Shown here: one piece after another, positions 943 through 36,144 of the stretch
How the letters are laid out: the number at the start of each line of letters is the position of its first letter
Numbering within the stretch: position 1 is the first letter of the stretch
DNA from: a virus
Taxonomy: Duplodnaviria; Heunggongvirae; Uroviricota; Caudoviricetes
Reading direction: 5' to 3' (one strand)
IMG/VR virus record: IMGVR_UViG_2728369608_000005
Length of the DNA: 36,144 nucleotides
Translations under genes and position numbers: made by a program
Notes under the pieces: model-generated
The model's database searches: none
What the model saw: the letters and a program-made list of their open reading frames with translations, nothing else
What the model was told of the DNA's origin: nothing

Positions 943-944
943 GA

Positions 945-2924: not shown

Positions 2925-2926
2925 AA

Positions 2927-4939: not shown

Positions 4940-4993
4940 GGGGGCAGTATTGCCCCTGTGCGGGAACGCCGATATTAAAGGCGTTTAAGAAGG

Positions 4994-6675: not shown

Positions 6676-6878
6676 GGGGCAATATCCTCTTCTGTACTGG
6701 CTTCTTCAGCCTCGATAACCGGAATCAGTAACAACAGCCCGGAGGGCAGCACCGGCGTGATGGCCACGTGTGGATTGGCGGCAATTATCCGGGGATAGCC
6801 CAGCGGGTCGCCGTAGTACTGCCATGCGAGAGAGTCCCAGCGCTCTCCGTCACGGGTGACATGTTCAAGAAACATCAC
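6663..6878 (-). CDS. Tail protein X-like small protein
   Basis: 71 aa with gpX-like motif (GERWDSLAWQYYGD ... IAANPHV). Confidence 0.55.
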   Translation of the reverse strand: MMFLEHVTRDGERWDSLAWQYYGDPLGYPRIIAANPHVAITPVLPSGLLLLIPVIEAEEASTEEDIAPWLR

Positions 6879-7759: not shown

Positions 7760-10224
7760 CAGCTGTACCTCCTGCGTTGTTGCTGAGCCAGCAGACGCTC
7801 CAGCATTTTCTCCAGCTCATGCAGGCTCATATTCAGTGCGCCGGTCAACCCGTCAGGCGCTGCGGTTTCTTTGCCATTGAGGAAAAACTGAGGATTAAAG
7901 CTGACCTGGATACCGCCAGATGTTCCGCTGCCAGTTGCAGCTGCGCCACGACCTGAATATCCCGCCGCCATGATTTCCGGCGACGGGATACGGGGAACAT
8001 CCGGTGTCATTTCAGTGGCCAGACGCTGCCCGGCCAGTGCAGCAAGTGGTGTGGTGCGCTGCAGGCCGATAGCGGCCCCCTGCGCAATGTTGTCACCAAA
8101 GCCTATAAACACACGGCTCGGCGAATGAATGCCCAGCTTTTCCTTAAACCAGCCGCCAACACTGTCGCCCATGTCTGTGACGGTAGTTTTGAGCGACTCC
8201 CATTTGTTTTTGATGCCGTTTATTAACCCGTCGATAAGATGGCCACCGAAGTCGGTGAACTTCGCTGGCAGATCAACACCGAGGTATTTCAGCGCAGCCG
8301 CAAAGGCTTTATAGAGCAGACCAACCGGCGACCAGTTAATCAGCAGCTTACCAATCCCCACGACACCGCCATTAAACGCCTCTTTAATGTCAGCCCAGCG
8401 CTGTTTAAACCAGCTACTGACTGCGCCCCAGTTGCGATAAATAAGGTAAGCTGCTGCCGCGACGGCGGTGATGGCGAGACCAATGGGATTCATCAGCAGC
8501 GCCCGGCCAATCCAGAGAACGGCCCGCCCGGCGATCATAATGCCGCGAACCAGCCCACCTGACAGCACACCACCCAGTGTTCTGGCTCCTCTGGCGACGG
8601 CGCTGAAGCCGGTCACCAGCCAGCGGAGCTTACCGCCTTCACCGAGTGCAAGCGACAGTCGAAGCCAGTTGGCCCGCAGTAAAACGGCATTTTTCCAGAC
8701 GTTAACAAAGGGGGAAATAAGGAGATTCAGCCCCAGCTTGAGACCGATAGTGGCCATCTTGAAAGCGAGTAATGCTCCTACAACCTTTATGGAGCCGCTG
8801 ACGATTTGCGGGTTTGCCGCTATCCATTTGCCGACACTGTCCATTAAAGGAATAAAAGTCTCACCCAGTTGGATCAAGGCCGGGCGTAGTGACTCACCAA
8901 TGCTGATGGCTGCCTCGTTAAAACCAATCTGAGTTCTGCGCCAACGACCTTCGAGCGTATTATTTTGTTTTGCAGCATCCTTATCCAGCGTAGACATTGC
9001 TGACGGGGTATTCATTTCCTGCTTGCTGGAAAGGTATTTATCCCAGCCCTGACGCATTGACAGTAAATGGTTAACGGTCTGAATATCAGTGAAGACTTCT
9101 GCCAGACCAAATGACTCCATTAGCTTCTGCTGGCCTTCCTGATCGCCTCTTGAGCCTGCTGCTTTCCATTGCTGTAAAAACGCCTTACCTTTACCGTCGA
9201 TAAAACGGTTGGCAATCATCAGTGAGGCTTCATACTGTGAGAAGCCCTGAGCGACGTAATTCTGCATTGACCCCTGGTAATCCACCCCGGCTTTAGCATA
9301 TTTCTGGATGGTATCTCCGCGCCCCATCGCCGCCAGCCAGTTTGACATATTGGTGACGGCCTCTTCCGCTGAGCCGCTGCCTTTACCAACTTCCAGACTG
9401 GCGACGATCTGGGTTATGGCATCTTTGCCGTAAATACCACGTGCAGCGAAGGCTTTGGCCATACCAGGTAACGCTTTCGCCATATCCTTCAGTTCAAACG
9501 AGCCTAGCTTAGCCCCGGTTGCCGCAATCCCAAACGCCTGCTCCAGCTCTTTCGCATCGGTAATTTTCAGCGCATCGCTAAAGGCGTAGGTCATTTTTGC
9601 GAGGTCAGTCATATCCGCTTTGGTGGCCGTGGCCGCTTTACCGAGCATCCCGGCAAATTTAGCTGCCTGCTCCGGGTTCATACCATCGGCAACTAACTGA
9701 CCAACACCCCCTAGCAGCGACTCCTGGAGCTGATTGACCTGAAGGGATGCCCGACGAATGGCAGTACCGATGGCCTGTTCCTGCCTTGAATCCAGATCAC
9801 CAGTGACACTGATATCCCGCAACTGCGATTCAAACGAGGCATATTGTTTGACTGAGGCCATGACCGGTGCACCCAGTGTTCTGACGATGGCATAGGTTTC
9901 TGCTCCCTGGCCATAGAGCGCCATGCGGTTAGCTTTCAGCGCGTCACTGGTGGTTGATACTGCTGACAAACGGCGCTGCTGGCGCTCAATTTGCTCCATT
10001 GTGCGGCTTACCCGCAGCAGGTCGCTGTTGAGGCGCTGCATCCGGGAAGAGCCTAACTGGCCATAACGTTCAGTTGCACGAGTTAAGGCATTCTGGCGTT
10101 CCTGCAGGCGGCGCGATGTATCGCCCAGGGAATCTAGGGCGCGTCGGGTGCCACTGACGGCTGAGCGGAAGCTGCTCCCGACAATGCCGCCAATAATGAC
10201 GCCGACTGAAAATTCACTGGCCAC
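7759..10224 (-). CDS. Tail tape measure protein
   Basis: 821 aa, Ala/Gly-rich with hydrophobic segments, after the chaperone genes. Confidence 0.85.
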   Translation of the reverse strand: MASEFSVGVIIGGIVGSSFRSAVSGTRRALDSLGDTSRRLQERQNALTRATERYGQLGSSRMQRLNSDLLRVSRTMEQIERQQRRLSAVSTTSDALKANRMALYGQGAETYAIVRTLGAPVMASVKQYASFESQLRDISVTGDLDSRQEQAIGTAIRRASLQVNQLQESLLGGVGQLVADGMNPEQAAKFAGMLGKAATATKADMTDLAKMTYAFSDALKITDAKELEQAFGIAATGAKLGSFELKDMAKALPGMAKAFAARGIYGKDAITQIVASLEVGKGSGSAEEAVTNMSNWLAAMGRGDTIQKYAKAGVDYQGSMQNYVAQGFSQYEASLMIANRFIDGKGKAFLQQWKAAGSRGDQEGQQKLMESFGLAEVFTDIQTVNHLLSMRQGWDKYLSSKQEMNTPSAMSTLDKDAAKQNNTLEGRWRRTQIGFNEAAISIGESLRPALIQLGETFIPLMDSVGKWIAANPQIVSGSIKVVGALLAFKMATIGLKLGLNLLISPFVNVWKNAVLLRANWLRLSLALGEGGKLRWLVTGFSAVARGARTLGGVLSGGLVRGIMIAGRAVLWIGRALLMNPIGLAITAVAAAAYLIYRNWGAVSSWFKQRWADIKEAFNGGVVGIGKLLINWSPVGLLYKAFAAALKYLGVDLPAKFTDFGGHLIDGLINGIKNKWESLKTTVTDMGDSVGGWFKEKLGIHSPSRVFIGFGDNIAQGAAIGLQRTTPLAALAGQRLATEMTPDVPRIPSPEIMAAGYSGRGAAATGSGTSGGIQVSFNPQFFLNGKETAAPDGLTGALNMSLHELEKMLERLLAQQQRRRYS

Positions 10225-10316
10225 GGTTGTTATCCTCTGAAAGCGGAAAAACGGAAGGAAAATGTCTGAGAGCCATGCAGAACAGCCGCGAGGGGCGGCT
10301 GTTAAGTGATGAGTCG

Positions 10317-10574
10317 TTACTGATTGTCGCCGAACTCGCTTTTGATTTGCTCTTCAGCCTGCTCCAGCCACATCTCCAGATCGTCAGTATCGAGGGCATC
10401 AATCTCCCCCGGCTGAAATCTAAACCACCTCGCCAGCAGCCCCTGCGCCTGCATCAGCGTTTTCGTCGCTCTTGCCCAGCCCAGTGACTTGCTGAAATCG
10501 TTTCTGCAGCTCCATGTAATCGGCAAGATCCATGTTATCGAGGTCTTCGGGGAGAATACCGGTGCTACGGGCAA
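10317..10574 (-). CDS. Possible frameshift extension (E-prime-like) of the tail chaperone
   Basis: Overlapping ORF in the +1 frame relative to the chaperone, filling the gap to the tape measure gene; its nominal start codon is TTG. Confidence 0.3.
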   Translation of the reverse strand: MPVAPVFSPKTSITWILPITWSCRNDFSKSLGWARATKTLMQAQGLLARWFRFQPGEIDALDTDDLEMWLEQAEEQIKSEFGDNQ

Positions 10575-17324: not shown

Positions 17325-18173
17325 TTATCCTCTCAGTTCCTGCTGTGCCAGCGGTTGAAGCGTACCCTGATAGCGGGCAAGGTCGGGACGGTATGCAGCC
17401 CCCGGCGCATAAGACCAGCCGACGTCGGTGGCCACCTTCGTGGTGCCGGTATTGAAGGTAGCGACATTCTGCATCTCGCCTGTTTTCTCTGAGACCAGCT
17501 TCAGCTCCCATCCCATGGCTGAGCCAGAACCTGACACCTTCAGGCCACGGGCACGCACATCCGCCGCGCTCAGGGCAATCACGCCACAACGGCAGCGCCA
17601 GCCGTTCGGCGGGTAGAACGCCTGCCAGAACGGGTCATCATAGCGCAGCACCAGACCATGCAGCGCCAGATGGCTCTTGCGGGTATGGCTGTCGTTGATG
17701 CCGGTATACATCCAGTACGGCCTGTCGTCGACGTTCTCCATCTGCTCGGCCCAGCGACCGGCGCTGTAGAGTACGGACATATTGGTGCGAAAGATGGTGT
17801 CGAGCCGCCACGGGCTGCCCTGCTGGATGGTGACCGGCTCGCCCGTTACCGGGTCGGTGGTATCACGTGGCCCCCACCATCCCTTGCGCTGCAGCTCCGG
17901 CTCCAGCTCCTGCCGGAACCAGCGGCCTGTTTTTCCTTCATCGACAGCCTGCTGCAGTGCCCCGCGAATATCTTCCAGGATATCAAGGCGGGTCACTTTG
18001 GCGACGGTAAAGGCGCGGGCATGGGCATCCTGCCACATCTCCTCCCAGTCCCACGTGAAGCTATACCCTTTGGACTTCAGGTAACTGATAGCCCGTTTGG
18101 GGGGCAGCGTCATGCAGTACGCCAGTTCAGCCGTTGTCACGCTCATGCAGACGCCCCCAGACAGTTGCAACAA
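17325..18173 (-). CDS. Head morphogenesis protein (Mu F / gp30-like)
   Basis: 282 aa following the portal gene. Confidence 0.75.
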   Translation of the reverse strand: MLQLSGGVCMSVTTAELAYCMTLPPKRAISYLKSKGYSFTWDWEEMWQDAHARAFTVAKVTRLDILEDIRGALQQAVDEGKTGRWFRQELEPELQRKGWWGPRDTTDPVTGEPVTIQQGSPWRLDTIFRTNMSVLYSAGRWAEQMENVDDRPYWMYTGINDSHTRKSHLALHGLVLRYDDPFWQAFYPPNGWRCRCGVIALSAADVRARGLKVSGSGSAMGWELKLVSEKTGEMQNVATFNTGTTKVATDVGWSYAPGAAYRPDLARYQGTLQPLAQQELRG

Positions 18174-19623
18174 ACATAATCCGTGCCAGCCGTTCCTGCA
18201 GGTCTTCAGCGTTCATCTGCGGGTACAGCTCGGCCAGTTCGCCCAGCAGCTCAGACGGATTGACGCCATCTTCAACCCGCTTAAACAGAGGAGCCAGTAC
18301 GGGTTCCAGCGTGCCATTTAACGCGCCTCCGTTCATCAGAATATCCAGCGCGTCGTCCAGGGCCTGCTGTGCCTGAATATCGGCATCAATCGCCTCGGCA
18401 AATGACAGCGGCAGCATGTTCTTCTGGCGTTCTGACGGTGGTGTCTCGTCAATATCACCGTCCTGCAGCTGGTACTCACGCTTGAAGTATTGCGGGGTGA
18501 AGACCACACCGGCACGGCTGAGTTTCTCGTCGCGGGTTGCCTGGGTATCGTCGACCGTTCCCTGTTCCCACATCTTCCAGACGGGGCTGGCCACATCGCC
18601 AAAGTTCATTGATACCGCCATCCTGATGGCCTGATTCACCGCGCTTTCCACGATATCAGCGTCAGCGTCACGGATATCATCGGTGACTTCCAGTCCGGCC
18701 TGCGCGGAGGCGCGGTTACTGTTGGCCTCGGTGGTCTGGTTCTGCCCCAGCAGGGCGATGGAGATTTCACTGCGGGCAAGCGTGATCAGGTTCTGATAAA
18801 TATCGCTGCTGTCGGCCTTGCCTGCGGCCTCCTTAATTTCAATGGAGGAATCGTCGGGGATAGCGGCCACCGCGTCTTCCACCATTGCCTCCATGGAATC
18901 CAGCAGCAGGTCAATCTCACCCTGAGCGGTACCGCGCGGATGCTTGCCGATAACCCACGGTGAGCCATATTTCTCGGCAAAGCGCACCCAGAACTTCATG
19001 CCGCCTTTTTTGAAGGTCACGGGCCAGAAGCACATCGACAGGTCAGGGAAGCCATACGGGTTATCGTAGGTCGCGTCCTGACGCGGTACCACAAACTTGT
19101 TCAGCGGTACCGGCTCGCCTTCCAGCCCGGCGTCCTTGGCGCGAAAGCGCAGCAGGTTGTCGTTGTCGAACTGGAACCACTCAGGGGGTTTACCTACGAT
19201 ATCGGCAATGGCCCAGGATTTAACAGAGCGTCCCCACATGATCTCACAGGGCTGATACCCGTAGAGAACGGCGTCGGTCATCTCGCCGATGATGCGGGAC
19301 AGATCCAGATCGTCGAGCATATCCCGGATGAAGCTGAATACCCGCGCCGGGGCATGACCACGTTCAAGACCGCGCTCCAGCGATTTGACCGCCGCCTTAC
19401 GCCTGCGGATGCAGCCACCGACCAGCGGGTCGGTACGCAGCTCGCGATAGATGCGGATATCCCGGCCCTGAGATTTCAGAATGGGGTCAGGGTTAGGCAG
19501 GTACATCCCCAGCCCGAAGAAGTCGATGGAACGGCTGCGCGAGGCGATCTGCTCCGTCAGTGTTTTATTAGGTTCGGCAAATTTGACGAACTCACTGGGT
19601 GAAACCCAGAGTCCACGGGCCAT
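18127..19623 (-). CDS. Portal protein (Mu gp29-like)
   Basis: 498 aa directly after large terminase. Confidence 0.8.
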   Translation of the reverse strand: MARGLWVSPSEFVKFAEPNKTLTEQIASRSRSIDFFGLGMYLPNPDPILKSQGRDIRIYRELRTDPLVGGCIRRRKAAVKSLERGLERGHAPARVFSFIRDMLDDLDLSRIIGEMTDAVLYGYQPCEIMWGRSVKSWAIADIVGKPPEWFQFDNDNLLRFRAKDAGLEGEPVPLNKFVVPRQDATYDNPYGFPDLSMCFWPVTFKKGGMKFWVRFAEKYGSPWVIGKHPRGTAQGEIDLLLDSMEAMVEDAVAAIPDDSSIEIKEAAGKADSSDIYQNLITLARSEISIALLGQNQTTEANSNRASAQAGLEVTDDIRDADADIVESAVNQAIRMAVSMNFGDVASPVWKMWEQGTVDDTQATRDEKLSRAGVVFTPQYFKREYQLQDGDIDETPPSERQKNMLPLSFAEAIDADIQAQQALDDALDILMNGGALNGTLEPVLAPLFKRVEDGVNPSELLGELAELYPQMNAEDLQERLARIMFVATVWGRLHERDNG

Positions 19624-21146
19624 CAGTAATCCTCCAGCATACGGGCCGCCTGACGACGACGGCGTGAGCTTGCCTTCACCGGCCCTTTGTTAATTTCACG
19701 ACTGGCGAAGTACGCCAGCGCCAGTGCGATGGCTGAATCCCCGTGACGCTTGCCACTGTCAGACTTCGCTTTTGAGCGCTGTTCCGGCACGCGGGGAACG
19801 CCGTTTACCACCTGAACGGCCCGCAGGTCATCCAGCGTATCTTCATCCTTCGGTAAATCCACCAGGTTGCCATCTTCCAGCGCAGCCTTGACCGGCGGCA
19901 TATGCTCGCGATACCAGTTTTCAGTTGGCATCACCTGCTTAACCCGGCTGGAGCCGTAGCGCTGCATGGCGTATTCGGCGAGGTAAGAGCCGTTACCACG
20001 GGCATCAAGCGCCGCGCCCATCAGGTTTGGCAGGCCGTCCATCAGGTACCAGGCGATTTGCTCCTGCTGTTTGAACGGCACGTTGCGCAGCTCCAGCACG
20101 AACGGCACGCGGCGAACCAGGTTCTTCTCCTGCAGCAGGGGATAGTCCACCGACAGGTCACCGCTGCGGCCAAAGTCGCGACCCAGGAAAGAACGTGCGT
20201 CAGCGGGGAGCGCCTCCAGCAACGGTTTCAGATGTGTATCAAGCCACTCCTGCGTCTCGCTCCAGCGGACATCATCGGGCTTCAGCTCGTAACCCTCCGG
20301 GCAGGTCAGACGCAACACCGGCGTGCCAGCCGACATACGGGACTCAATCAGGGCGCGGGACAGCCAGGCTCCGCCACCGTTGGCCGGAACACAGTCAAGC
20401 TCCTCCGATGCACCGGCACCGTAGAATTTGTACACCGATGCCATCCACGCCTGCTCGGATGCTTCCGACCATTCTTTCCCGGTACGCAGGCAGACGCGGT
20501 GGAACAGCCCTTGGGACACAGCCTCCTGAAAAGTAATGCGATGTACGCTGCCCCCCTGACGCCCGGCCCGGATATCACCGATAAGCGTATTGAACGGGTT
20601 ATCGTCACCGTCATGGGTGGAGATAACGCGCACTTTACCGCCCCAGATAAGCATCGCCAGCGCCGCCTTCAGCAGTTCGTCCAGTTGCTCATGGAACGCC
20701 GCTTCGTCGATAACGATGATGCCCTGACGGCCACGCAGGTTAGACGGACGGCTGGAGAGCGCGACAACGCGGAAGCCGGAGTCAGGGAATTTGATGGTGT
20801 AGGTCTTGATATGCTTGTCGTCTTCGTCCTCTTCCCAGAAACCCTCTTCGATTTCACTGGCGGCATAGTTGAATGCCCGCGCCCACATCGCACACGCCTG
20901 GATATATTCGACGGTCATGTCCTGGTTATAGGCGATGTAATACACGTTCATCCCACCCGCAGGGGCTGAAGAGGCTGCGGTCAGCACGTCATCGGACGCC
21001 TCAGCCCAGGTGATACCGGTTCGGCGGCTCTTCTCAATCACCTTGAGCGGAGACGTGTCAGCCACCCAGCGCTGCTGGTAGGGCATCAGAACGGCGGGGA
21101 TATCCAGCGCCGAGGTGTCAGGCAAAACAGGAGCAAGCTGGCTCAT
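19623..21146 (-). CDS. Terminase large subunit (Mu gp28-like)
   Basis: 507 aa with nuclease-like acidic motifs, upstream of portal. Confidence 0.8.
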   Translation of the reverse strand: MSQLAPVLPDTSALDIPAVLMPYQQRWVADTSPLKVIEKSRRTGITWAEASDDVLTAASSAPAGGMNVYYIAYNQDMTVEYIQACAMWARAFNYAASEIEEGFWEEDEDDKHIKTYTIKFPDSGFRVVALSSRPSNLRGRQGIIVIDEAAFHEQLDELLKAALAMLIWGGKVRVISTHDGDDNPFNTLIGDIRAGRQGGSVHRITFQEAVSQGLFHRVCLRTGKEWSEASEQAWMASVYKFYGAGASEELDCVPANGGGAWLSRALIESRMSAGTPVLRLTCPEGYELKPDDVRWSETQEWLDTHLKPLLEALPADARSFLGRDFGRSGDLSVDYPLLQEKNLVRRVPFVLELRNVPFKQQEQIAWYLMDGLPNLMGAALDARGNGSYLAEYAMQRYGSSRVKQVMPTENWYREHMPPVKAALEDGNLVDLPKDEDTLDDLRAVQVVNGVPRVPEQRSKAKSDSGKRHGDSAIALALAYFASREINKGPVKASSRRRRQAARMLEDY

Positions 21147-21691
21147 GAGGCAATCCCCAGAATTTCACGACGCAGCGCCTGTACCGCATCGGTTGACAGT
21201 CCACCCTTACGGGCAATTTTCTCGGCGTTGCTGGCCGCCTGCTGCGCTCTGGCCCGGACTTCAGACTGGAACTTCTTGAGGTTGACGGAAGCGCGGGACA
21301 GCGTGGCCACGTTCTTTGCCACCTTCGACAACAGCGCCACGCGCTCTTTGGGGTCGACTTCGCCTTCTTCCGCTTCCTGCAGCTGGACGATGCTCTCGAA
21401 CAGCTCGGTCTGAATCAGGGCGATCACCGCCTCCGAACGTGCATCCTGATCGTCAGCCGCACCTTCGGTCAGCATCCGGGCCGCTTCAGTGGCTGCACGG
21501 ATAGCGCCATAGCGGCGCTCAATCTTCTGGCCATAGCGATGGATAGCCGATTTGCTGATGACATAACCCTGCTCACGCAGCAGGGACTCCAGCTCGTTAT
21601 ACCCGCTGAAGCCGGATTCAGTCAGCGCCCGCTCAAGCCAGCGACGCACGTCTTCCGGCAGCTTTTCTATCGTGCTGCGTCTGGCCATCAT
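21143..21691 (-). CDS. Mu gp27-like protein (putative small terminase / DNA-binding)
   Basis: 182 aa, N-terminal motif EKLPEDVRRWLE...SKSAIHRY, directly upstream of large terminase. Confidence 0.65.
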   Translation of the reverse strand: MMARRSTIEKLPEDVRRWLERALTESGFSGYNELESLLREQGYVISKSAIHRYGQKIERRYGAIRAATEAARMLTEGAADDQDARSEAVIALIQTELFESIVQLQEAEEGEVDPKERVALLSKVAKNVATLSRASVNLKKFQSEVRARAQQAASNAEKIARKGGLSTDAVQALRREILGIAS

Positions 21692-24170: not shown

Positions 24171-24494
24171 ATGACTGAACCGAAACAGACCGGTCTTAAA
24201 AAAGGGTTCCTCTTTGGGATCAGAACCGGAGAGCAGAATAAAACTTACACGCTAAGCGTGGATGCCAGTTGCCCAACCGAGGCGATTGCAGAACTGAGAA
24301 ACGCGCTGACGGCGCTTGAAACGCGAAGCAGCCATTTCGCCAGCGGAGAAAACAACGTCATGATGATTGGCAATGTGGCGGCGACATCACGATATAAAGC
24401 CGTACCTAATCCTACTACTCAGTTATCCGGCGACCAACGAAGACTGGAAGCGGAATCAGCAGTTCCCAGAACGGTTCTTCCTCACCAGTCTTAA
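24171..24494 (+). CDS. Hypothetical small protein (108 aa)
   Basis: ATG preceded by GGGGAGG at 8-nt spacing; divergent from the holin; last 80 bp overlap the 188-aa gene. Confidence 0.3.
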   Translation: MTEPKQTGLKKGFLFGIRTGEQNKTYTLSVDASCPTEAIAELRNALTALETRSSHFASGENNVMMIGNVAATSRYKAVPNPTTQLSGDQRRLEAESAVPRTVLPHQS

Positions 24495-24981
24495 CCGGGG
24501 CCGCTTCTCCCGCCCAGTAAAGCCAGGCCCGGTGATATAATTCCAGCACCGGGCAATCACTGTTCAATAACCTCATATCTCCGCGATGCACCGGCTCATC
24601 TGTGATTACTTCATATATCGGTGCCGTTCTGATTTCGTCTTCGCCTCTCTCATCGGCCAGTAATGCCCGGAACTTCCTGACTTCACTCAGATGCTGACAG
24701 GCAAACAGTGACTGATAGCGGGAAGGTTTGTCAGGAAAATGGCTACGGCGAACTAACTCAAACACCAGACCGACCAGCAGACTTCTGCTGACTCCACTGT
24801 CATCTTCCATTTTAGGGCCGGGGTTATAGAGATAGTTATGACCGTGCTTGGAAAGACCATCGGGATACATCTGATGAAGGAAAGCGGCCAGCTCCGGCGC
24901 TTCAGGTTCGTATTTTCCGGTAATTACATGGCAAGGCGAAGGCAGACGATTAGCGGAATCAAGTGTGTAATACGTTCCCAT
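24415..24981 (-). CDS. Hypothetical protein (188 aa), unknown function
   Basis: ATG-initiated ORF immediately upstream of the lysis/late arm; no family recognised. Confidence 0.55.
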   Translation of the reverse strand: MGTYYTLDSANRLPSPCHVITGKYEPEAPELAAFLHQMYPDGLSKHGHNYLYNPGPKMEDDSGVSRSLLVGLVFELVRRSHFPDKPSRYQSLFACQHLSEVRKFRALLADERGEDEIRTAPIYEVITDEPVHRGDMRLLNSDCPVLELYHRAWLYWAGEAAPVKTGEEEPFWELLIPLPVFVGRRITE

Positions 24982-25224
24982 TCAGAAAACAATCCTTATC
25001 GAACAAACACTGCACGTAGGTAACACATCCAGTAAATCGCGTTAATAGAAAACAGTTATCCATAAGCCTCATCCTGACAATGAAAGAACGACCAGCCCGG
25101 TGCGGTAACACCAGGCTGGTCATCAACCCACAGGTATGCACTGTGAGCCGACCAGGGTTCAGTCAGTCTCGCGAGACCAGACTAGCCTGCCATATTTTCA
25201 CTGATTGCAAAAGGCTTACGGATA

Positions 25225-25995
25225 ATGAAAGAACAATCTTTACCCATCGTTCCATGGATTGGCGGCAAACGTCGTCTGGCTAAGCATATTCTGCCGCTGT
25301 TCCCGGCCCATACCTGCTATGTGGAGCCGTTCTGTGGGGCCGCTGCGCTCTATTTTCTTAAGACACCCAGCAAGACCGAAGTCATTAACGATATCAACGG
25401 GGAACTGGTGAACCTCTATCGGGTGGTCAAGCATCATCTGGAAGAATTTGTTCGCCAGTTCAAATGGGCGCTGGTCAGCCGTCAGATTTACAAATGGTTG
25501 CAGGATACGCCGGAAGAAACTCTCACCGACATTCAGCGGGCGGCCCGGTTCTACTACCTGCAGAAACAGGCGTTTGGCGGCAAGGTGGCCGATCACTCGT
25601 TCGGAACCTCCACCACAAGTGCGCCGCGCTTTAACCTCCTGCGCATCGAAGAAGAACTGTCGATGGCACACCTGCGCCTGTCGAGAACGCTGATAGAGCA
25701 TCTGGACTGGCACCAGTGCATAGAGCGATATGATCGCCCGCATACGCTGTTCTACTGTGACCCACCATACTGGGGAACAGAGGGCTATGGTGTGGAGTTC
25801 GGGCTGGAAAACTATGATCACATGGCAGATTTAGCGCGAAGGATCAAAGGGAAGATGATTATATCAGTGAACGATATCCCGGAAATGCGGCAGGTATTCA
25901 ACGGTCTGAACATGCAGTCGGTTGATATCAGCTACAACCTTAAGGTAACAGGTAAACCCAGCCCGAAGAAAGAGCTGGTAATTTGTAATTTTTGA
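25225..25995 (+). CDS. DNA adenine methyltransferase, Dam family, no adjacent restriction gene
   Basis: N-terminal PWIGGKRRL and FCGAAALYF motifs and catalytic DPPY (FYCDPPYWGT). Confidence 0.85.
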   Translation: MKEQSLPIVPWIGGKRRLAKHILPLFPAHTCYVEPFCGAAALYFLKTPSKTEVINDINGELVNLYRVVKHHLEEFVRQFKWALVSRQIYKWLQDTPEETLTDIQRAARFYYLQKQAFGGKVADHSFGTSTTSAPRFNLLRIEEELSMAHLRLSRTLIEHLDWHQCIERYDRPHTLFYCDPPYWGTEGYGVEFGLENYDHMADLARRIKGKMIISVNDIPEMRQVFNGLNMQSVDISYNLKVTGKPSPKKELVICNF

Positions 25996-26008
25996 AAGAG
26001 GTAGTTAA

Positions 26009-26036
26009 AGGTGGTGGTGCATCTGCAGCACCACCT
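26009..26036. terminator. Hairpin between convergent Dam and lipoprotein genes (possible bidirectional terminator)
   Basis: AGGTGGTGGTGCA / TGCAGCACCACCT, 13-bp stem with one mismatch; weak T-tracts on both sides. Confidence 0.4.
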
Positions 26037-26042
26037 AAACAT

Positions 26043-26576
26043 TTAATCCTGCCTTGGACAAGTCCAATAATCATTATCTGGCTCTGGTGAATAAGCTTTC
26101 AAACAACCTGCTCGCGGGGTCTTACCATCATCTGTCATAGGAACTTTTTCCTTATCAAGTTTCACGGTCAGGTCTCCACCAGGAACATCCGTTTTATCGA
26201 AAAAAACAGCCTGACATGCTGATTTAGATATTTTCACTTCGTGGGCATTATTTGATATGAACAAATAACAATTATGACCAGAGGCTATGTAGTCACTTGG
26301 AATATTATTTTCGTCTTTAATATGAAACTGCACCGTTGTCACCGGGCGTTCGCTATCCTCGGATACTTCGACTTTTTCAAAACTGTCCGCGTACTTATCC
26401 AGGCCGGGGAGTTGTTGGCGAATAAACGGTAATTCGCGATTTACAACCGGATTATCTGTTTCAACGCTAAAAACCGCGTGCTCCTTAGCTGTGGTGGACG
26501 TATCAGCAGGATCGGTATTATCTCCACACCCAGATAAAACAAATATCAACGGTAAAAATAATTTGCGCATAGTCAT
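26043..26576 (-). CDS. Lipoprotein moron (candidate lysogenic-conversion / superinfection-exclusion protein)
   Basis: Signal peptide with lipobox LSGC; gene visibly AT-rich versus surrounding phage DNA; 35 bp downstream of the repressor on the same strand. Second ATG at 26570 has better Shine-Dalgarno spacing. Confidence 0.75.
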   Translation of the reverse strand: MTMRKLFLPLIFVLSGCGDNTDPADTSTTAKEHAVFSVETDNPVVNRELPFIRQQLPGLDKYADSFEKVEVSEDSERPVTTVQFHIKDENNIPSDYIASGHNCYLFISNNAHEVKISKSACQAVFFDKTDVPGGDLTVKLDKEKVPMTDDGKTPRAGCLKAYSPEPDNDYWTCPRQD

Positions 26577-26611: not shown

Positions 26612-27022
26612 TTAACCCGTATTTTTTAATCTTTCGAACGCTGCGGACAGCTCCTTAAGCTGTTTTTCCATATCAATCATTCGCTGTTTTTCCTCAGCGC
26701 CTCGCAGCAACTCTTTTCGCACCTCTGGCTCCAGTTGGTTGAGCAGCTCCAATAACTTCAGATCAGACTGGTTGAAATGCTGCTCCTGATTAGCTGGCTG
26801 TGCTTTCTCTACCCCAACAGCTTCCCCTTTACCAGTAAGTAGCCAATCTATTGATATGTTCAAATGGGTGCTTAGCGCAACAAGAGCCTCTGCATTAGGT
26901 TCTCTCTCTCCACGCAGATAGTTTTGAAGTGAGCGATATGGAATTTTTGACAAGTCTGACAATGCCTTAATTGTCAGACCCTTAGCATCCATCGCTTCGC
27001 GCAATCTCTCTTTTATACTCAT
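26612..27022 (-). CDS. Phage repressor, XRE-family HTH
   Basis: Internal ATG at 27022 (MSIKERLREAMDAKGLTIKALSDLSKIPYRSLQNYLRGER, 136 aa); divergent from the early operon. Confidence 0.75.
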   Translation of the reverse strand: MSIKERLREAMDAKGLTIKALSDLSKIPYRSLQNYLRGEREPNAEALVALSTHLNISIDWLLTGKGEAVGVEKAQPANQEQHFNQSDLKLLELLNQLEPEVRKELLRGAEEKQRMIDMEKQLKELSAAFERLKNTG

Positions 27023-27038
27023 TTGAACATATCTCAAT

Positions 27039-27066
27039 TTGACATACCCGTTTGGGTGCGTACAAT
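27039..27066 (+). promoter_or_regulatory. Candidate early promoter (sigma-70 type) for the ner-A-B operon
   Basis: TTGACA (27039..27044), 16-bp spacer, TACAAT (27061..27066); AGGAA Shine-Dalgarno 10 nt before the ATG at 27111. Confidence 0.5.
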
Positions 27067-27110
27067 AGACCCAATAGAGTACATCATAACCCAACAGGAA
27101 CACGGTGCAT

Positions 27111-27335
27111 ATGAACAAACAACAAGTTCGGGCACGGCTGGTTGAAAGAGGCAGTAGCTTGCGCCAGTTCGCGCTTAACGCGGGCTATGAGCCACGAACA
27201 GTCACCCAGGCTGTCAGCCGCTGGGCAGGCAAAAGCGAACTTCCACGCGGTCGTTTGACTTATCGGATTTTGCGAGACCTTTCGGTCGCAATAGGCAAAG
27301 AAGTTACCCCCGGCATCCTCAAGGAGGCGTCATGA
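27111..27335 (+). CDS. ner: Ner-like DNA-binding protein
   Basis: 74 aa; LRQFALNAGYEPRTVTQAV pattern resembles Mu Ner; first gene of the early operon. Confidence 0.65.
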   Translation: MNKQQVRARLVERGSSLRQFALNAGYEPRTVTQAVSRWAGKSELPRGRLTYRILRDLSVAIGKEVTPGILKEAS

Positions 27336-28558: not shown

Positions 28559-30328
28559 ATGAGTGCCGCCCTGACTGAACGACTGGTTTATGTTGCCCGC
28601 GCGGCACGTGACGCGGGGCATGGTAAGCGTGGTGCGATATATGATGCCGCCTGCGCCGAACTGGGCATTTCCCGCGCCACCCTGCTGCGCAAGCTGAAGG
28701 AGGTATCAGTGACTGACAAACGTAAAAAACGCGCCGATGCCGGGCGCAGTGCCCTGAGCCGCGACGAAGCCGCGCTGATATCTGCCACGCTGCGCGAGGC
28801 CACCCGTAAGAACGGTAAGCGCCTGTATTCCATCGCGGATGCGGTGGAGACCCTGCGGTCAAACGGCTTTATCACTGCTGGCAGAACGGACGAGGCCACA
28901 GGCGAGTTTTTCCCGCTGTCCGAGGACACCATCAGCCGCGCCCTGCGGAACTATGGTCTGCACCCGGAACAGCTTGACGCACCGGCCCCGTCGTCCGAGA
29001 TGGCCAGCCTGCATCCCAATCACGTCTGGGAGATTGATGCCTCACTTTGTACGCTTTACTACCTGAGCAACGGCCATAAAGGGTTGCAGGTGATGGACAG
29101 CTCGAAGTTCTACAAGAACAAGCCTGCCAACATCGCCCGCATCGCCAGTGACCGCGTGTGGAGTTACGAGATTACCGACCATACCAGCGGCTGGATTTAC
29201 GTTGAGTACGTGATGGGTGCGGAATCTGGTGAGAACCTCTGTTCTGTGCTTATCAACGCCATGCAGGAGCGCGGCGGCGCGGACGTGCTGCACGGCGTGC
29301 CGAAAATACTCTACCTTGATCCCGGTTCGGCGAACACCGCTGGCATGACGAAAAACATGTGCCGCTCGCTGGGCATCAATCTGATAGCGCACAAGCCGCA
29401 TAACGCCCGCGCCACCGGGCAGGTGGAAAAGGCCCGTGACATTATCGAACGTAAACTGGAGCCGGGTCTCAAATTCCAGCCGGTTCATAGCCTGGACGAA
29501 CTGAACGCGCTGGCGGTGAAATGGCGCAGCCACTTTAACGCCACGGCGGTCCACAGCCGCCACGGTAAAACCCGCACGGATATCTGGCTGAAGATTACTG
29601 CTGGCCAGCTGAAAAAAGCGCCATCCGTTGAGGTTTGCCGCGAACTGGCGGTGGCCGCACCGGAACTCCGTAAGGTCACACCAAAACTGCGCGTCTCGTT
29701 CCGGGGCAATGAGTTTGACGTTTCGACGGTACCGGGCGTACTGGTCGGCGAAAAACTGATGATTACCCGTAACCCGTGGCGCAGCGATGTGGCGCAGGTG
29801 GTGCTGACCGGTGAGGACGGTCACGAGACGTTCTTCCTAGTCGAGGAGGTCAGAAAGAACGAGTTCGGCTTTGCCGAAAGCGCGGCGGTATTTGGCGAAA
29901 ACTACAAAGCCCTGCCGGAGACCCCGGCGCAGACGGCGGCAAAAGAAATCGAAGAGCTGGTTACGGGCACCGATAACGCCACCGATGCAGCTGCTGCACG
30001 CAAGGCGAAGGCGCTGCCGTTCGGCGGGCGACTTGACCCGTACAAACATATCGACGACACCACGCTTCCGGCCTATATGCCGAAGCGCGGTCAGGCTTCA
30101 GACGTGCGCGGGCCGCGTATTGAGCAGCGTCCGCTGACCCATGTGGAGGCGGCGAAAGCCCTGCGCGAGAAGTTTGGCGCTAACGGCCATATCTGGACGC
30201 CGGAACATTACCGCCAGTTAACGGCACAGTACCCGGACGGCGTACCGGAAGCCGCTCTGGATGAGGTCATGGTCACCCTGACCACTCCGGCCCGCAACAG
30301 CGTTATCAGCATCGTTAACGGTAACTGA
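28559..30328 (+). CDS. DDE transposase (Mu A-like function)
   Basis: 589 aa; candidate DDE residues in HVWEIDAS, LYLDPGSANT and a downstream Glu; followed by the B-like ATPase. Confidence 0.8.
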   Translation: MSAALTERLVYVARAARDAGHGKRGAIYDAACAELGISRATLLRKLKEVSVTDKRKKRADAGRSALSRDEAALISATLREATRKNGKRLYSIADAVETLRSNGFITAGRTDEATGEFFPLSEDTISRALRNYGLHPEQLDAPAPSSEMASLHPNHVWEIDASLCTLYYLSNGHKGLQVMDSSKFYKNKPANIARIASDRVWSYEITDHTSGWIYVEYVMGAESGENLCSVLINAMQERGGADVLHGVPKILYLDPGSANTAGMTKNMCRSLGINLIAHKPHNARATGQVEKARDIIERKLEPGLKFQPVHSLDELNALAVKWRSHFNATAVHSRHGKTRTDIWLKITAGQLKKAPSVEVCRELAVAAPELRKVTPKLRVSFRGNEFDVSTVPGVLVGEKLMITRNPWRSDVAQVVLTGEDGHETFFLVEEVRKNEFGFAESAAVFGENYKALPETPAQTAAKEIEELVTGTDNATDAAAARKAKALPFGGRLDPYKHIDDTTLPAYMPKRGQASDVRGPRIEQRPLTHVEAAKALREKFGANGHIWTPEHYRQLTAQYPDGVPEAALDEVMVTLTTPARNSVISIVNGN

Positions 30329-33866: not shown

Positions 33867-34071
33867 ATCAATTGTATGTGCCCTGTTCTGGTATGGTCTC
33901 GTGGGGTGGTGTACTGCTGAACTGCACCGCCGCTCAGGTTTTTACTCACGTTACAGCGGTGCCGGACACTGGATCAGTTGGGCCGTTATGTTCATGTGCT
34001 GGCCTGTTGCGCTTCCTTTATATGTCGATTATATCGGTGGCGCAGGTAAAAGGAGCGACGATGATGACTAA
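33856..34071 (+). CDS. Small membrane protein
   Basis: ATG at 33856; hydrophobic Trp-rich segments (ALFWYGLVGW, WAVMFMCWPVALPLYV). Confidence 0.45.
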   Translation: MMAESIVCALFWYGLVGWCTAELHRRSGFYSRYSGAGHWISWAVMFMCWPVALPLYVDYIGGAGKRSDDDD

Positions 34072-34489
34072 GCAGCGTCTTATTCAACTCATCCATATTG
34101 CCCGCAATGACCTCCAGATGGATGAGGACACCTACCGCCAGATGCTACAGGGGCTGACCGGCAAAGCCTCAACCAAAGGGATGGATACCCCACAGCTAAA
34201 CCGCGTGCTGGAATCCATGAAAAATAAAGGCTTTCGCATTAAGCCTGCCGGGAAAGCCAAGTCCGGCTTACCGCTGGATAGTCATCCGCAGTCAAAGAAA
34301 ATCCGTGCGCTATGGCTTGAAATGGCTGCCGCAGGCATCGTCCGAGACAGTTCAGAGCAGGCGCTGGCGCTGTGGGTTAAACGGGAAACAGGCATCAGCG
34401 CGTTACGCTGGCTCAGCAATGAGCAGGCAAGTAGCGTGATTGAGAAACTGAAGAAGTGGCAGCGCAGAGCTGCGGGAGTGAAGCAATGA
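34061..34489 (+). CDS. gemA: GemA-like regulatory protein (Mu gp16-like)
   Basis: ATG at 34061 after AGGAG; RLIQLIHIARNDLQMDEDTYRQML ... KKIRALW ... ALRWLSNEQASSVIEKLKKWQ. Confidence 0.75.
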   Translation: MMTKQRLIQLIHIARNDLQMDEDTYRQMLQGLTGKASTKGMDTPQLNRVLESMKNKGFRIKPAGKAKSGLPLDSHPQSKKIRALWLEMAAAGIVRDSSEQALALWVKRETGISALRWLSNEQASSVIEKLKKWQRRAAGVKQ

Positions 34490-34875
34490 GTGACCTGAAT
34501 CAGTTTCGTAGTAAAGGGCCGGAACTGTTGGTAGAACTGGCACAGCATACCTCTGAGACCGTCCGCGAGATTATTGATATCGAACCCGCAGTTGCCGACC
34601 AGATTGGTCAGGCCGTCGCGAACCGCATGATGCAGGTCTGGGGTGGGCAAAACGTCTATTTTCCGATGGGCATGGTCTGGAAGGTCAGTCAGCGCGACCG
34701 GGAAATCTTCCTGGAGTTTGACGGACGCAACCATCACGAACTGGCCCGCAAATTCGGTGTTTCACTACAGTGGGTTTACAGCGTGGTGAAGCGGGTCAGA
34801 AAAGAAGAATTGGATCGGATGCAGGGCAAACTGTTTGATGGTGACTCTGATTCAGAGAAGGTGGAAAATAGCTAA
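34486..34875 (+). CDS. mor: Mor/C-family transcriptional activator
   Basis: 129 aa from the ATG at 34486; GGQNVYFP ... REIFLEFDGRNHHELARKFGVSLQWVYSVVKRVR. Confidence 0.75.
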   Translation: MSDLNQFRSKGPELLVELAQHTSETVREIIDIEPAVADQIGQAVANRMMQVWGGQNVYFPMGMVWKVSQRDREIFLEFDGRNHHELARKFGVSLQWVYSVVKRVRKEELDRMQGKLFDGDSDSEKVENS

Positions 34876-34894
34876 GCTATTTATAGGAGGACAG

Positions 34895-35224
34895 ATGGCC
34901 AGACCAAGCAATATTGATAAACTGCCAGAGGATGTTCGTGCCGAGCTTCATAGCGAATTATCGCGCACAAACTTCACCGGTTATGAATGGCTCTCGCTCT
35001 GGTTAGCCGATAAAGGTTACAGCGTATCGAAGTCAGCCATTCAGCGTTATGCTGTCGCGAATAAAAATGAAATTCTGGGCCTACAGCAAGAGAGTCGATT
35101 CCATCAGGCACAGCTTCGACTTAATGCGCTTGGTGTAGCGGCAACAATTTCACCAGGAAAAGACCTTGGAAGTTTGAAGAATGATGCAGATGCACTACTA
35201 AAATGGGCGTTGTTTGGTTACTGA
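34895..35224 (+). CDS. gp27-N-terminal-like paralog (DNA-binding?), last gene before the prophage end
   Basis: ATG at 34895 after AGGAGG; N-terminus IDKLPEDVRAELHSEL...SKSAIQRY parallels the gp27-like protein at 21143..21691. Confidence 0.55.
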   Translation: MARPSNIDKLPEDVRAELHSELSRTNFTGYEWLSLWLADKGYSVSKSAIQRYAVANKNEILGLQQESRFHQAQLRLNALGVAATISPGKDLGSLKNDADALLKWALFGY

Positions 35225-35230
35225 ATGAGT

Positions 35231-35256
35231 GGGGGGCATCGTCCCCCTTAATTTTC
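35231..35256 (+). terminator. Rho-independent terminator at the end of the early operon
   Basis: GGGGGG-catcgt-CCCCC hairpin followed by TTAATTTT, directly after the stop at 35224. Confidence 0.5.
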
Positions 35257-35320
35257 ATATACTGTAAATGAATTACATAACCTTTTGTTTGTCTCTTCCC
35301 ATCACGTACCATAAAGTCCC

Positions 35321-35356
35321 ATTTATCTTACGGTACCCCCTATATTTATCTCACGT
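35321..35356. repeat. Terminal direct repeats, candidate transposase-binding sites
   Basis: ATTTATCTTACGG (35321..35333) and ATTTATCTCACGT (35344..35356); element ends ...TCTAATCA at 35363. Confidence 0.5.
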
Positions 35357-35363
35357 CTAATCA

Positions 35364-36144
35364 GGCGGCGAAAGTGGGCGGCATTGTTGCCAACAACACC
35401 TATCCGGCAGATTTCATCTACCAGAACATGATGATTGAGAGCAACATCATTCACGCCGCGCATCAGAACGACGTGAACAAACTGCTGTTTCTCGGATCGT
35501 CCTGTATCTACCCGAAACTGGCAAAACAGCCGATGGCAGAAAGCGAGTTATTGCAGGGTACGCTGGAGCCGACTAACGAGCCTTATGCTATTGCCAAAAT
35601 CGCCGGGATCAAACTGTGCGAATCTTACAACCGCCAGTATGGACGCGATTATCGCTCGGTCATGCCGACCAACCTGTATGGCCCGCATGACAACTTCCAC
35701 CCGAGTAATTCGCATGTGATCCCTGCATTGCTGCGTCGCTTCCACGAGGCGACGGCACAGAATGCACCGGACGTGGTGGTGTGGGGCAGCGGTACACCGA
35801 TGCGCGAATTTCTGCACGTCGATGATATGGCGGCGGCGAGCATTCATGTGATGGAGCTGGCGCACGAAGTCTGGCTGGAGAACACCCAACCGATGCTGTC
35901 GCACATTAACGTCGGCACGGGCGTTGACTGCACTATCCGCGAGCTGGCGCAAACCATCGCCAAAGTGGTGGGTTACAAAGGTCGGGTGGTTTTTGATGCC
36001 AGTAAACCGGATGGTACACCGCGCAAACTGCTGGATGTGACACGCCTGCATCAGCTTGGCTGGTATCACGAAATCTCACTGGAAGCGGGGCTCGCCAGCA
36101 CTTACCAGTGGTTCCTTGAGAATCAAGACCGCTTTCGGGGGTAA
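35364..36144 (+). pseudogene. fcl: GDP-L-fucose synthase gene, 5'-truncated by the prophage insertion
   Basis: Reading frame from 35365 encodes [26 protein letters not shown]... to the C-terminus ...[11 protein letters not shown]; the N-terminal ~62 codons are absent from the window. Confidence 0.85.

What the first reader, a model, noticed from the sequence alone, without database searches (positions are those of the whole stretch)
34895..35224. Paralog of the gp27-like N-terminal domain as the last early gene
A 109-aa protein shares the N-terminal motif of the late gp27-like protein (putative small terminase / DNA-binding) but has a different, shorter C-terminus. It is the final gene before the terminal repeats, with a strong Shine-Dalgarno and a terminator, so it may bind the element end for packaging or transposition.
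Basis: partly seen in the sequence, partly recalled or inferred. Interest (0 to 1): 0.4.

Follow-up and report, generated by a model that had tools for sequence, protein, structure and literature searches.

The report
Short gp27-like DNA-binding gene at phage end
The last gene at one end of this Mu-like (BcepMu-type) prophage encodes a small protein that copies only the DNA-binding head of the phage's presumed small terminase; it belongs to a widespread, uncharacterised accessory family that always sits in this terminal spot, but what it does there is still inference.

Summary
ORF 34895-35224 (+) encodes 109 aa whose first 52 residues are 54% identical (E 1e-16) to the N-terminus of the 182-aa gp27-like protein (21143-21691, -) that lies just upstream of the large terminase. 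The rest is not detectably homologous. It has an AGGAGG ribosome-binding site and an intrinsic terminator. It is the last gene before the transposon terminus, which I place at 35363.

It is not a recent truncation. Dozens of 105-120-aa proteins (30-45% identical) align with it end to end. Both halves are under purifying selection.

In all 12 lineages examined (Entero-, Beta- and other Gammaproteobacteria) it is the last outward-reading gene at the mor-side end, usually straight after GemA-Mor. BcepMu, phiE255, PhiKM and 18 of 24 related E. coli prophages lack it, so it is accessory.

Predicted topology matches gp27 residues 1-106 (HTH plus helical hairpin). The long C-terminal helices of gp27 are missing.

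My best reading (about 0.35, inferred) is a stand-alone gp27-type DNA binder. It would act on the adjacent, reportedly pac-bearing end without being able to recruit terminase.

The main rivals are a Mor-linked transcription factor, a transposition accessory and an inter-phage decoy. RefSeq already labels it 'Gp27 family protein'. Interest is moderate.

The parts
34885..34890 (+). Shine-Dalgarno AGGAGG, 4 nt upstream of the ATG
   Evidence: Read from the sequence.
34895..35224 (+). 'short gp27' gene of 109 aa. It has an N-terminal gp27-type helix-turn-helix (about residues 7-58) and a family-specific C-terminal helical hairpin.
   Evidence: Purifying selection in both halves.
35231..35247 (+). 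Intrinsic-terminator-like hairpin GGGGGGCATCGTCCCCC followed by TTAATTTT
   Evidence: Equivalent hairpins follow the orthologs.
35263..35277 (.). 15-bp palindrome TGTAA-ATGAA-TTACA, 86 bp from the terminus. It is a candidate protein-binding site, and its binder is unknown.
   Evidence: Unique exact match in the window. Found at 85-87 bp from the terminus in most of the 16 mor-side ends tabulated, with or without the gene, including BcepMu, and again in L015.
35298..35363 (+). Terminal direct repeats, presumed transposase-binding sites: CCCATCACGTACC at 35298-35310, TTTATCTTACG at 35322-35332 and TTTATCTCACG at 35345-35355. The element terminus ...TCTAATCA is at 35363, and host DNA follows from 35364.
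   Evidence: The junction was defined by comparing different insertion sites.
34456..34875 (+). mor (Mor/C-family transcription activator), immediately upstream and presumably co-transcribed
   Evidence: Pfam PF08765, 1.3e-42. Mor-short gp27 adjacency was found in most lineages.
33872..34489 (+). gemA-like gene
   Evidence: Pfam PF06252, 8.9e-41.
21143..21691 (-). Full-length gp27-like protein (182 aa), the presumed small terminase and the late paralog
   Evidence: PF11985 full-length match, 3e-56, and PHROG 426. AF2 model pLDDT 88.
19623..21146 (-). Large terminase-like gene that overlaps the gp27 stop codon. The Mu-type portal gene follows at 18127-19623.
   Evidence: Weak Terminase_6N hit and strong Portal_Mu hit.

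Best explanation
What it is (well supported): a conserved accessory gene of BcepMu-type transposable phages. It is made together with Mor as the last gene reading towards the mor-side end. Its product is a stand-alone version of the N-terminal part of gp27, namely the helix-turn-helix plus a two-helix hairpin. It lacks gp27's long C-terminal helix and tail.

How it most likely works (inferred): its recognition helix has the same consensus (S-K-S-A-x-H/Q-R-Y) as that of gp27. It should therefore bind the same kind of DNA site as the presumed small terminase, in or next to the roughly 112-bp cis-acting end that begins about 25 bp after its stop codon. That end is reported to carry pac in this phage group. 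The 15-bp palindrome 86 bp from the terminus is a candidate site.

It lacks the part of gp27 expected to build the terminase ring and dock the large subunit. It would therefore occupy or pre-organise the end during the Mor phase without starting packaging. This would make it a gatekeeper or marker of the packaging end that tunes when or how efficiently that end is used. It is dispensable for phage growth.
For: Homology and family:
- Homology to the gp27 N-terminus.
- The consensus of the recognition helix is the same in 50 short and 45 long forms.
- The gp27-type HTH is an autonomous module that also occurs as 2-3 tandem copies in other proteins.
- The short form is a deep family. Dozens of 50%-identity representatives align with it end to end.
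- pN is 0.09-0.25 against saturated pS of 0.78-0.98, in both halves.

Structure predictions:
- Short form: H12-25, H30-39, H46-55, H57-85, H91-107.
- Long form: H13-25, H31-40, H47-76, H82-106, then H114-162 and H167-181.
- The short form therefore has the topology of gp27 residues 1-106 only.

Position:
- It is the last outward-reading gene at the mor-side end in all 12 lineages, down to 29% identity.
- It stays linked to the end even in a degraded 8.7-kb Pseudomonas element.
- In close E. coli relatives the segment from the 3' end of mor to the terminus is replaced as one block.

Literature: pac is stated to lie at the replication/regulation (mor) end of BcepMu-type phages (PMC2920897, citing Summer et al. 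2004).
Against: - No binding data exist, and no covariation between the protein and any DNA site could be tested.
- The palindrome and terminal repeats are equally conserved in phages that lack the gene. The palindrome also occurs near the tail-side end. Nothing in the end therefore depends on this protein.
- Terminal position is also explained by linkage to mor, which is terminal in all these phages, and by ends being hot spots for accessory genes.
- The assignment of gp27 as small terminase is itself by synteny and naming only. Foldseek and PDB sequence searches gave nothing significant.
- The short-form model has only moderate confidence (pLDDT 68.6).
- The pac location for BcepMu is a literature statement that I could not trace to primary data here.
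Confidence: 0.35

Rival explanations
1. Transcription factor of the Mor module. The gp27-type HTH has been co-opted as a regulator made together with Mor. It would help, temper or time the switch to late gene expression, or regulate something else such as host genes. In this reading its place at the end is merely a by-product of being attached to mor.
For: - It lies immediately downstream of mor in most lineages: 19 bp away in the window and overlapping stop/start in L015.
- This holds in a phage whose transposase operon points the other way, where cI-Mor-short gp27 read together towards the end.
- It occupies the slot that the middle gene C has after mor in phage Mu (own knowledge of Mu).
- Small HTH proteins are commonly regulators.
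Against: - Viable relatives with near-identical mor and late genes lack it: PhiKM and E. coli prophages L007-L009.
- There is no similarity to Mor/C or any regulator family.
- Terminator-like hairpins separate it from mor in Klebsiella and P. pseudonitroreducens.
- The only exact copy of the candidate palindrome in the window is at the end, not at a promoter.
Confidence: 0.2
2. Transposition accessory. It binds near the mor-side end to shape transpososome assembly, to distinguish the two ends, or to protect the end. This would be analogous to architectural factors at Mu ends.
For: - It is expressed with the replication/transposition genes rather than the late genes (gene order).
- It is encoded within 170 bp of the transposase-site repeats in 11 of 12 lineages, which suits action in cis.
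- The palindrome is present at both ends of the element.
- There are weak homeodomain-like or transposase-type HTH hits: HTH_32 and HTH_Tnp_4.
Against: - Its closest relatives are packaging proteins, not transposases.
- Relatives without it clearly transpose, since they have many insertion sites.
- The end sequences do not differ systematically with its presence.
Confidence: 0.15
3. Inter-phage weapon or decoy. A DNA-binding-only copy of the small terminase would block pac recognition or terminase assembly of competing or superinfecting Mu-like phages. It would work like the packaging-interference proteins of phage satellites.
For: - It is accessory and patchily distributed among close relatives, as competition genes often are.
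- It lacks the gp27 C-terminal region.
- The recognition helix and the palindrome are conserved across many related phages, so cross-reaction is conceivable.
- It is retained in a defective Pseudomonas element found at several sites.
Against: - It sits in a lytic-phase operon with no promoter of its own detected, so it is probably silent in lysogens.
- It would hit its own phage equally.
- It has no match to known defence families.
Confidence: 0.1
4. Non-functional leftover of a partial duplication of the gp27 gene.
For: Only the N-terminal third resembles gp27. One ortholog (L023) appears frameshifted.
Against: - Length is conserved at 105-120 aa across a family that reaches 29% identity.
- C-terminal motifs are conserved.
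- Non-synonymous change is strongly depleted in both halves.
- The SD and terminator are intact.
Confidence: 0.02

Closest known systems
Mu Gp27 family (Pfam PF11985 / DUF3486; PHROG 426 'terminase small subunit'), e.g. BcepMu gp27 and the window's own 182-aa protein
   Same: - The N-terminal ~55-residue helix-turn-helix, with the same consensus recognition helix.
- It scores above the Pfam cut-off.
- RefSeq already names it 'phage protein Gp27 family protein'.
- The predicted topology equals gp27 residues 1-106.
   Different: - Only profile positions 1-53 of 173 match.
- Residues 57-109 are not detectably homologous.
- It lacks the long helix 114-162 and the C-terminal helix.
- It is not next to the large terminase but about 13 kb away, on the other strand, in the mor operon at the genome end.
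- It is dispensable.
Small terminase subunits in general (N-terminal DNA-binding domain, central oligomerisation core, C-terminal large-subunit-binding segment)
   Same: A DNA-binding head of the kind found in the phage's presumed small terminase. It is encoded close to the end reported to carry pac, as small terminase genes of many phages lie next to their pac or cos site (own knowledge).
   Different: - It has no C-terminal segment.
- Ring formation is unknown.
- It has no structural match to solved small terminases.
- It is expressed with Mor rather than with the late genes.
Packaging-interference or packaging-redirection proteins of phage satellites (SaPI small-terminase variants and Ppi; Rpp of E. 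coli PICIs). Analogy from own knowledge.
   Same: The idea is shared: a small terminase-related or terminase-binding protein changes which DNA is packaged.
   Different: Here the protein is encoded by the phage itself, not by a satellite. No sequence relationship was found, and no interaction was tested.
Phage Mu middle gene C (the gene that follows mor in Mu)
   Same: It occupies the position directly after mor and would be timed at the early-to-late switch.
   Different: C is a Mor paralog, and this protein has no Mor/C similarity.
End-proximal variable genes ('morons') of BcepMu-like phages (PMC2920897)
   Same: It is present or absent among close relatives, lies at a genome end and has its own terminator.
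   Different: Unlike typical morons it is a phage-type protein. It is a paralog of a packaging gene and keeps the same slot across Beta- and Gammaproteobacteria. No promoter of its own was detected.

Membership tests
Pfam PF11985 Phage_Mu_Gp27 (DUF3486) | Score above the curated gathering threshold | tested here: met
   56.5 bits against a cut-off of 28. All 50 short-form members match.
Pfam PF11985 Phage_Mu_Gp27 (DUF3486) | Match over the whole ~173-position profile, including the C-terminal helices | tested here: not met
   Only positions 1-53 match. hhalign of short against long families stops at column 66.
Terminase small subunit | Gene adjacent to, and co-transcribed with, the large terminase gene | tested here: not met
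   The gene lies at 34895-35224 (+). The large terminase lies at 19623-21146 (-), next to the 182-aa paralog.
Terminase small subunit | N-terminal DNA-binding domain | tested here: inconclusive
   An HTH is predicted (helices 12-25, 30-39, 46-55) and there are weak HTH_32 hits. DNA binding was not assayed.
Terminase small subunit | Oligomerisation core forming a ring | not testable with these tools
   Only monomer models were available. A two-helix hairpin is predicted.
Terminase small subunit | C-terminal segment that engages the large subunit | tested here: not met
   The protein ends at residue 109. The equivalents of gp27 helices 114-162 and 167-181 are absent.
Terminase small subunit | Fold similarity to a solved small terminase | tested here: inconclusive
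   There were no significant Foldseek or PDB sequence hits for either the short or the long form.
Mor/C transcription activators (PF08765) | Sequence match to the family | tested here: not met
   No hit for the 109-aa protein. The upstream gene is the Mor member.
'Short gp27' subfamily defined here (105-120 aa) | End-to-end alignment with conserved L10, P11, W36, L37, G41, S47, A82, A98 and W104 | tested here: met
   The window protein is the first row of alignment A1. The exhaustive search lists dozens of full-length matches.
'Short gp27' subfamily defined here (105-120 aa) | Last outward-reading gene at the mor-side end of a Mu-type transposable element | tested here: met
   Window: the stop codon is 139 bp from the terminus. 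The same holds in all 12 lineages.
Known anti-phage defence proteins (PADLOC) | Match to any defence-system model | tested here: not met
   No hits for four diverse members.

The most novel reading that the evidence does not exclude
The short gp27 family is a phage-encoded 'terminase decoy'. It would be a DNA-binding-only copy of the small terminase, made with Mor, that sits on the pac-bearing end. Its likely site is the palindrome fixed 86 bp from the terminus. It would license, time or give specificity to packaging initiation in transposable phages. It could equally sabotage packaging by co-resident Mu-like phages that share the site. That would be a new layer of packaging control, and the first functional handle on pac recognition in the BcepMu group.
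Probability: 0.2. Interest if true: 0.6.

Novelty: new variant of a known kind. Interest (0 to 1): 0.4.

Why it matters
How Mu-type transposable phages recognise their packaging end is poorly defined outside Mu itself. How they keep packaging from interfering with replicative transposition is also unclear.

This protein carries only the DNA-binding head of the presumed small terminase. It is always encoded right next to the cis-acting end and is co-expressed with the late-gene activator. That makes it a simple, testable entry point, because it is small, non-essential and easy to delete or purify.

If it binds the end, it identifies the gp27-type recognition site, and hence pac, for a large group of prophages in Enterobacterales, Pseudomonas and Betaproteobacteria. 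If it does not, it is one more small accessory regulator.

Either way, current annotation ('Gp27 family' / 'DUF3486') hides the fact that two distinct architectures exist.

Tried and rejected
Searches that gave nothing:
- Foldseek of the short-form model against PDB and BFVD gave nothing significant. The same was true of the long form against PDB.
- PDB sequence searches with both family profiles gave only noise.
- NCBIfam and PADLOC gave no meaningful hits.
- Literature searches (BcepMu/gp27, DUF3486, Mu-like small terminase/pac, transposable phage/left end) found no description of this short form. The only useful item was the statement on pac and variable ends in PMC2920897.

Tool runs that failed:
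- The search for related loci with the family alignments failed because there was no conserved 7-10-column stretch. With a single distant member it found nothing.
- My first degenerate DNA pattern for genome contigs had one N too many and found nothing. The corrected pattern gave 5 loci.

Checks with a clear negative answer:
- tblastn of distant short forms against 50,697 phage records shows that only the KP12 record carries a short form.
- I looked for remnants of the gene in ends that lack it (BcepMu, PhiKM, L007, L008) with the family HMM on six-frame translations. None were found.
- I checked whether Mu's own left end carries the same palindrome. It does not.
- P0015, a 2073-aa hit to the C-terminal half, is a low-complexity repeat protein and is uninformative.
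- The 'decaying fragment' reading is rejected because of purifying selection and family depth.

The two genes are about 13 kb apart and loci are limited to 10-kb flanks.

Full report
**Setting.** The window is most of a BcepMu-type (Mu-like) transposable prophage in an Escherichia-like host.
- Late genes run on the minus strand, including a Mu-type portal, a large terminase-like gene and a full-length gp27-like gene at 21143-21691.
- A CI-type repressor lies at 26612-27118.
- A plus-strand operon carries a DDE transposase (28559-30328), a MuB-like ATPase, DUF3164, DUF2786, GemA (33872-34489) and Mor (34456-34875).
- The closest records are 'Klebsiella phage KP12 clone KP12_2' (97% identical) and BcepMu-like E. 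coli phages.
- The tail-side end of the element is not in the window.

ORF 34895-35224 encodes 109 aa.
- Residues 1-52 are 54% identical, without gaps, to residues 2-53 of the 182-aa gp27-like protein (E 1e-16).
- Pfam PF11985 matches only profile positions 1-53 of 173, whereas the 182-aa protein matches the full length. PHROG 426 ('terminase small subunit') behaves the same way.
- An AGGAGG lies 4 nt before the ATG.
- A G+C-rich hairpin with a T-rich tail follows at 35231-35247.
- Mor ends 19 bp upstream, and no promoter-like site lies between.

**Where the element ends.** An identical prophage in E. coli CFSAN051542 sits at another site (the nap operon). It matches the window up to ...TCTAATCA and then diverges. 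Four Serratia insertions end with the same motif followed by different host DNA.
- The terminus is therefore window 35363.
- The roughly 112 bp between the terminator and the terminus hold three direct repeats of the type (C)CCAT..TTATCTYACG. These are presumed transposase sites.
- Host sequence follows from 35364. I recognise it as the 3' part of fcl from memory and did not test this.

**A real gene in a deep family.**
- An exhaustive HMMER search of 1.84 billion representatives found 280 proteins at E<=1e-3. Dozens of these are 101-120 aa long and align with the query from residue 1 to about 106 at 30-45% identity.
- An alignment of 50 such proteins shows invariant M1, P11 and G41, and near-invariant L10, L18, F27, W36, L37, S47, A82, A98 and W104. 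It also shows a C-terminal motif (R-L-R-C/A-L-E-V-A-A ... A-E/D-x-L-L-x-W).
- Against orthologs from Serratia and Symbiopectobacterium (69-85% identical, all 109 aa), synonymous sites are saturated (pS 0.78-0.98). pN is 0.09-0.25 in both halves.
- A profile-profile comparison with 45 full-length gp27 proteins aligns only the first 66 columns, so the C-terminal half is family-specific.
- N-terminal domains mostly group by class. The nearest neighbour is of the same class for 41 of 50 short forms and 43 of 45 long forms.
- Both classes share the same consensus recognition helix, S-K-S-A-x-H-R-Y.

**Structure predictions.**
- The short form (pLDDT 68.6) is all-helical: 12-25, 30-39, 46-55, 57-85 and 91-107.
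- The long form (pLDDT 88) has 13-25, 31-40, 47-76 and 82-106, and then a long helix 114-162 and a last helix 167-181.
- Topologically the short form equals gp27 residues 1-106. It lacks the two C-terminal helices.
- By analogy with other small terminases (own knowledge), those helices are the likely oligomerisation and large-subunit-binding parts. This last step is inference.
- Neither model matched a solved structure.

**Conserved position.** I examined 12 lineages:
- E. coli/KP12 (the window).
- Serratia marcescens, at four insertion sites.
- Symbiopectobacterium.
- Klebsiella pneumoniae (29% identical).
- A metagenomic phage (L015).
- Two Rhodocyclaceae.
- Dechloromonas.
- Pseudomonas pseudonitroreducens.
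- Iodobacter.
- Nitrosomonadales.
- A group of Pseudomonas remnants.

In all 12 the gene is the last gene reading outward at one end of a Mu-type element.
- In most lineages it directly follows GemA-Mor.
- In L015 the transposase operon points the other way, yet cI-Mor-short gp27 still read towards the end. There, two small reverse-strand ORFs separate the gene from the end.

**The gene is accessory.**
- BcepMu, phiE255 and PhiKM, which are isolated phages, lack the gene. So do 18 of 24 E. coli genomes with a related mor.
- In those phages Mor is followed by a terminator and the same kind of ~112-bp end.
- No remnant of the gene is detectable in them.
- In the E. coli relatives similarity breaks inside the 3' end of mor. 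The terminal ~112 bp are homologous but visibly diverged by eye. The segment from mor's 3' end to the terminus therefore behaves as one exchangeable block.

**A cis element found on the way.** A 15-bp palindrome, TGnAA-N5-TTnCA, lies at window 35263-35277.
- It sits 85-87 bp from the mor-side terminus in most of the 16 mor-side ends tabulated, whether or not the gene is present, and BcepMu is among them. The same spacing was then found in L015.
- A copy also lies 68 bp from the tail-side end of the CFSAN051542 prophage.
- It is the only exact copy in the window, so it is not an operator or a late-promoter element.
- Its binder is unknown. It is a natural candidate site for a dimeric HTH protein, but it does not depend on the short gp27.

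**Mechanism.**
- Shown: the homology, the family depth, purifying selection, the architecture, the conserved terminal and Mor-linked position, and dispensability.
- From the literature: BcepMu-type phages are said to package from a pac site at the replication/regulation end, which is the end next to this gene. Variable genes are said to cluster at the ends (PMC2920897).
- Inferred: the protein binds DNA through the gp27-type HTH at the adjacent end. Because it lacks gp27's C-terminal helices, it cannot recruit terminase. It would therefore gate, mark or organise the packaging end at the time Mor is made.
- I give this about 0.35. The rivals are a Mor-module transcription factor (0.2), a transposition accessory (0.15), an inter-phage decoy (0.1) and a dead remnant (0.02, contradicted).
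- An important caveat applies. Terminal position alone is weak evidence, because mor is terminal in every member of this phage group.

**Comparison and novelty.**
- The N-terminal similarity is already captured by Pfam PF11985/DUF3486, and RefSeq calls the protein 'phage protein Gp27 family protein'.
- I found no description of three things: the distinct short architecture, its depth, and its fixed slot after mor at the element end.
- I therefore rate it a new variant of a known kind, with moderate interest (0.4).
- It would become more interesting if it proved to be a phage-encoded terminase decoy that defines pac usage.

Noticed in passing
window 35263-35277; also L002, L006, L007, L008, L010, L012, L015, L017, L018, L023-L029 ends: A 15-bp palindrome, TGnAA-N5-TTnCA, sits 85-87 bp from the mor-side terminus in most of the BcepMu-type ends examined, with or without the short gp27 gene, and BcepMu and PhiKM are among them. 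A copy lies 68 bp from the tail-side end of the CFSAN051542 prophage (L027). Its binder is unknown. Phage Mu's left end has no equivalent.
   Followed up: partly
L018 about 1795-10465; L019; L010 about 7179-8470; L011: Pseudomonas genomes and metagenomes carry an ~8.7-kb defective Mu-type element. L018 and L019 show end motifs on both sides. The element has no transposase, a truncated head protease, Mor, a tape-measure gene, a tail chaperone and the short gp27 at one end. The flanking DNA differs between L010, L011 and L018. It could be a decayed prophage or a helper-dependent mini-element.
   Followed up: partly
proteins P0010, P0012, P0054, P0141: Some proteins consist of two or three tandem gp27-type HTH modules. 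The module is therefore used in at least three architectures: long gp27, short gp27 and tandem arrays.
   Followed up: partly
L012 7944-8000 (Klebsiella); L025 about 3253-3299 (P. pseudonitroreducens): In these lineages a terminator-like hairpin with a T-run lies between mor and the short gp27 gene. In the window the two genes are only 19 bp apart. Expression of the short gene may be attenuated or separately controlled in some phages.
   Followed up: no
window 1-2924; L027 1-2055: The window starts inside the tail-fibre region. It has convergent pairs of tail-fibre and tail-fibre-assembly ORFs (1-942 and 945-1388 on +; 1360-1965 and 1962-2924 on -). In the CFSAN051542 copy a 'recombinase family protein' is the last gene at the tail-side end. 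This suggests an invertible host-range segment like Mu's G segment with Gin.
   Followed up: no
window 35364-36144: Host DNA beyond the terminus reads as the 3' part of an epimerase/reductase gene. I recognise it from memory as fcl (GDP-fucose synthase, colanic acid cluster). If so, the prophage interrupts it. The 5-bp target duplication cannot be checked because the other end is outside the window.
   Followed up: no
L001 (OM835952.1, 'Klebsiella phage KP12 clone KP12_2'): This 34.9-kb record is filed under Vequintavirinae. It is in fact a BcepMu-type transposable phage genome, 97% identical to the window over its last 1.5 kb, and stops about 40 bp short of the true terminus. It is probably a co-induced prophage or a mis-binned contig. 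It is the only one of 50,697 phage records with a short gp27 gene.
   Followed up: partly
L023 about 3380-3700 (-); L024 1-345: The Rhodocyclaceae MAG copy of the short gp27 gene appears frameshifted near codon 28, which could be a pseudogene or an assembly error. In the Nitrosomonadales contig the sequence upstream of the gene translates to what looks, from memory, like the C-terminus of an IS66-type transposase instead of Mor; this was not tested.
   Followed up: no
window 24415-26576: Between the lysis/late genes and the repressor lie a DUF2441 gene (-), a DNA adenine methylase (+, 25225-25995) and a 177-aa ORF (-). The names are RefSeq annotations of the identical prophage. This is an accessory island in the middle of the element.
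   Followed up: no
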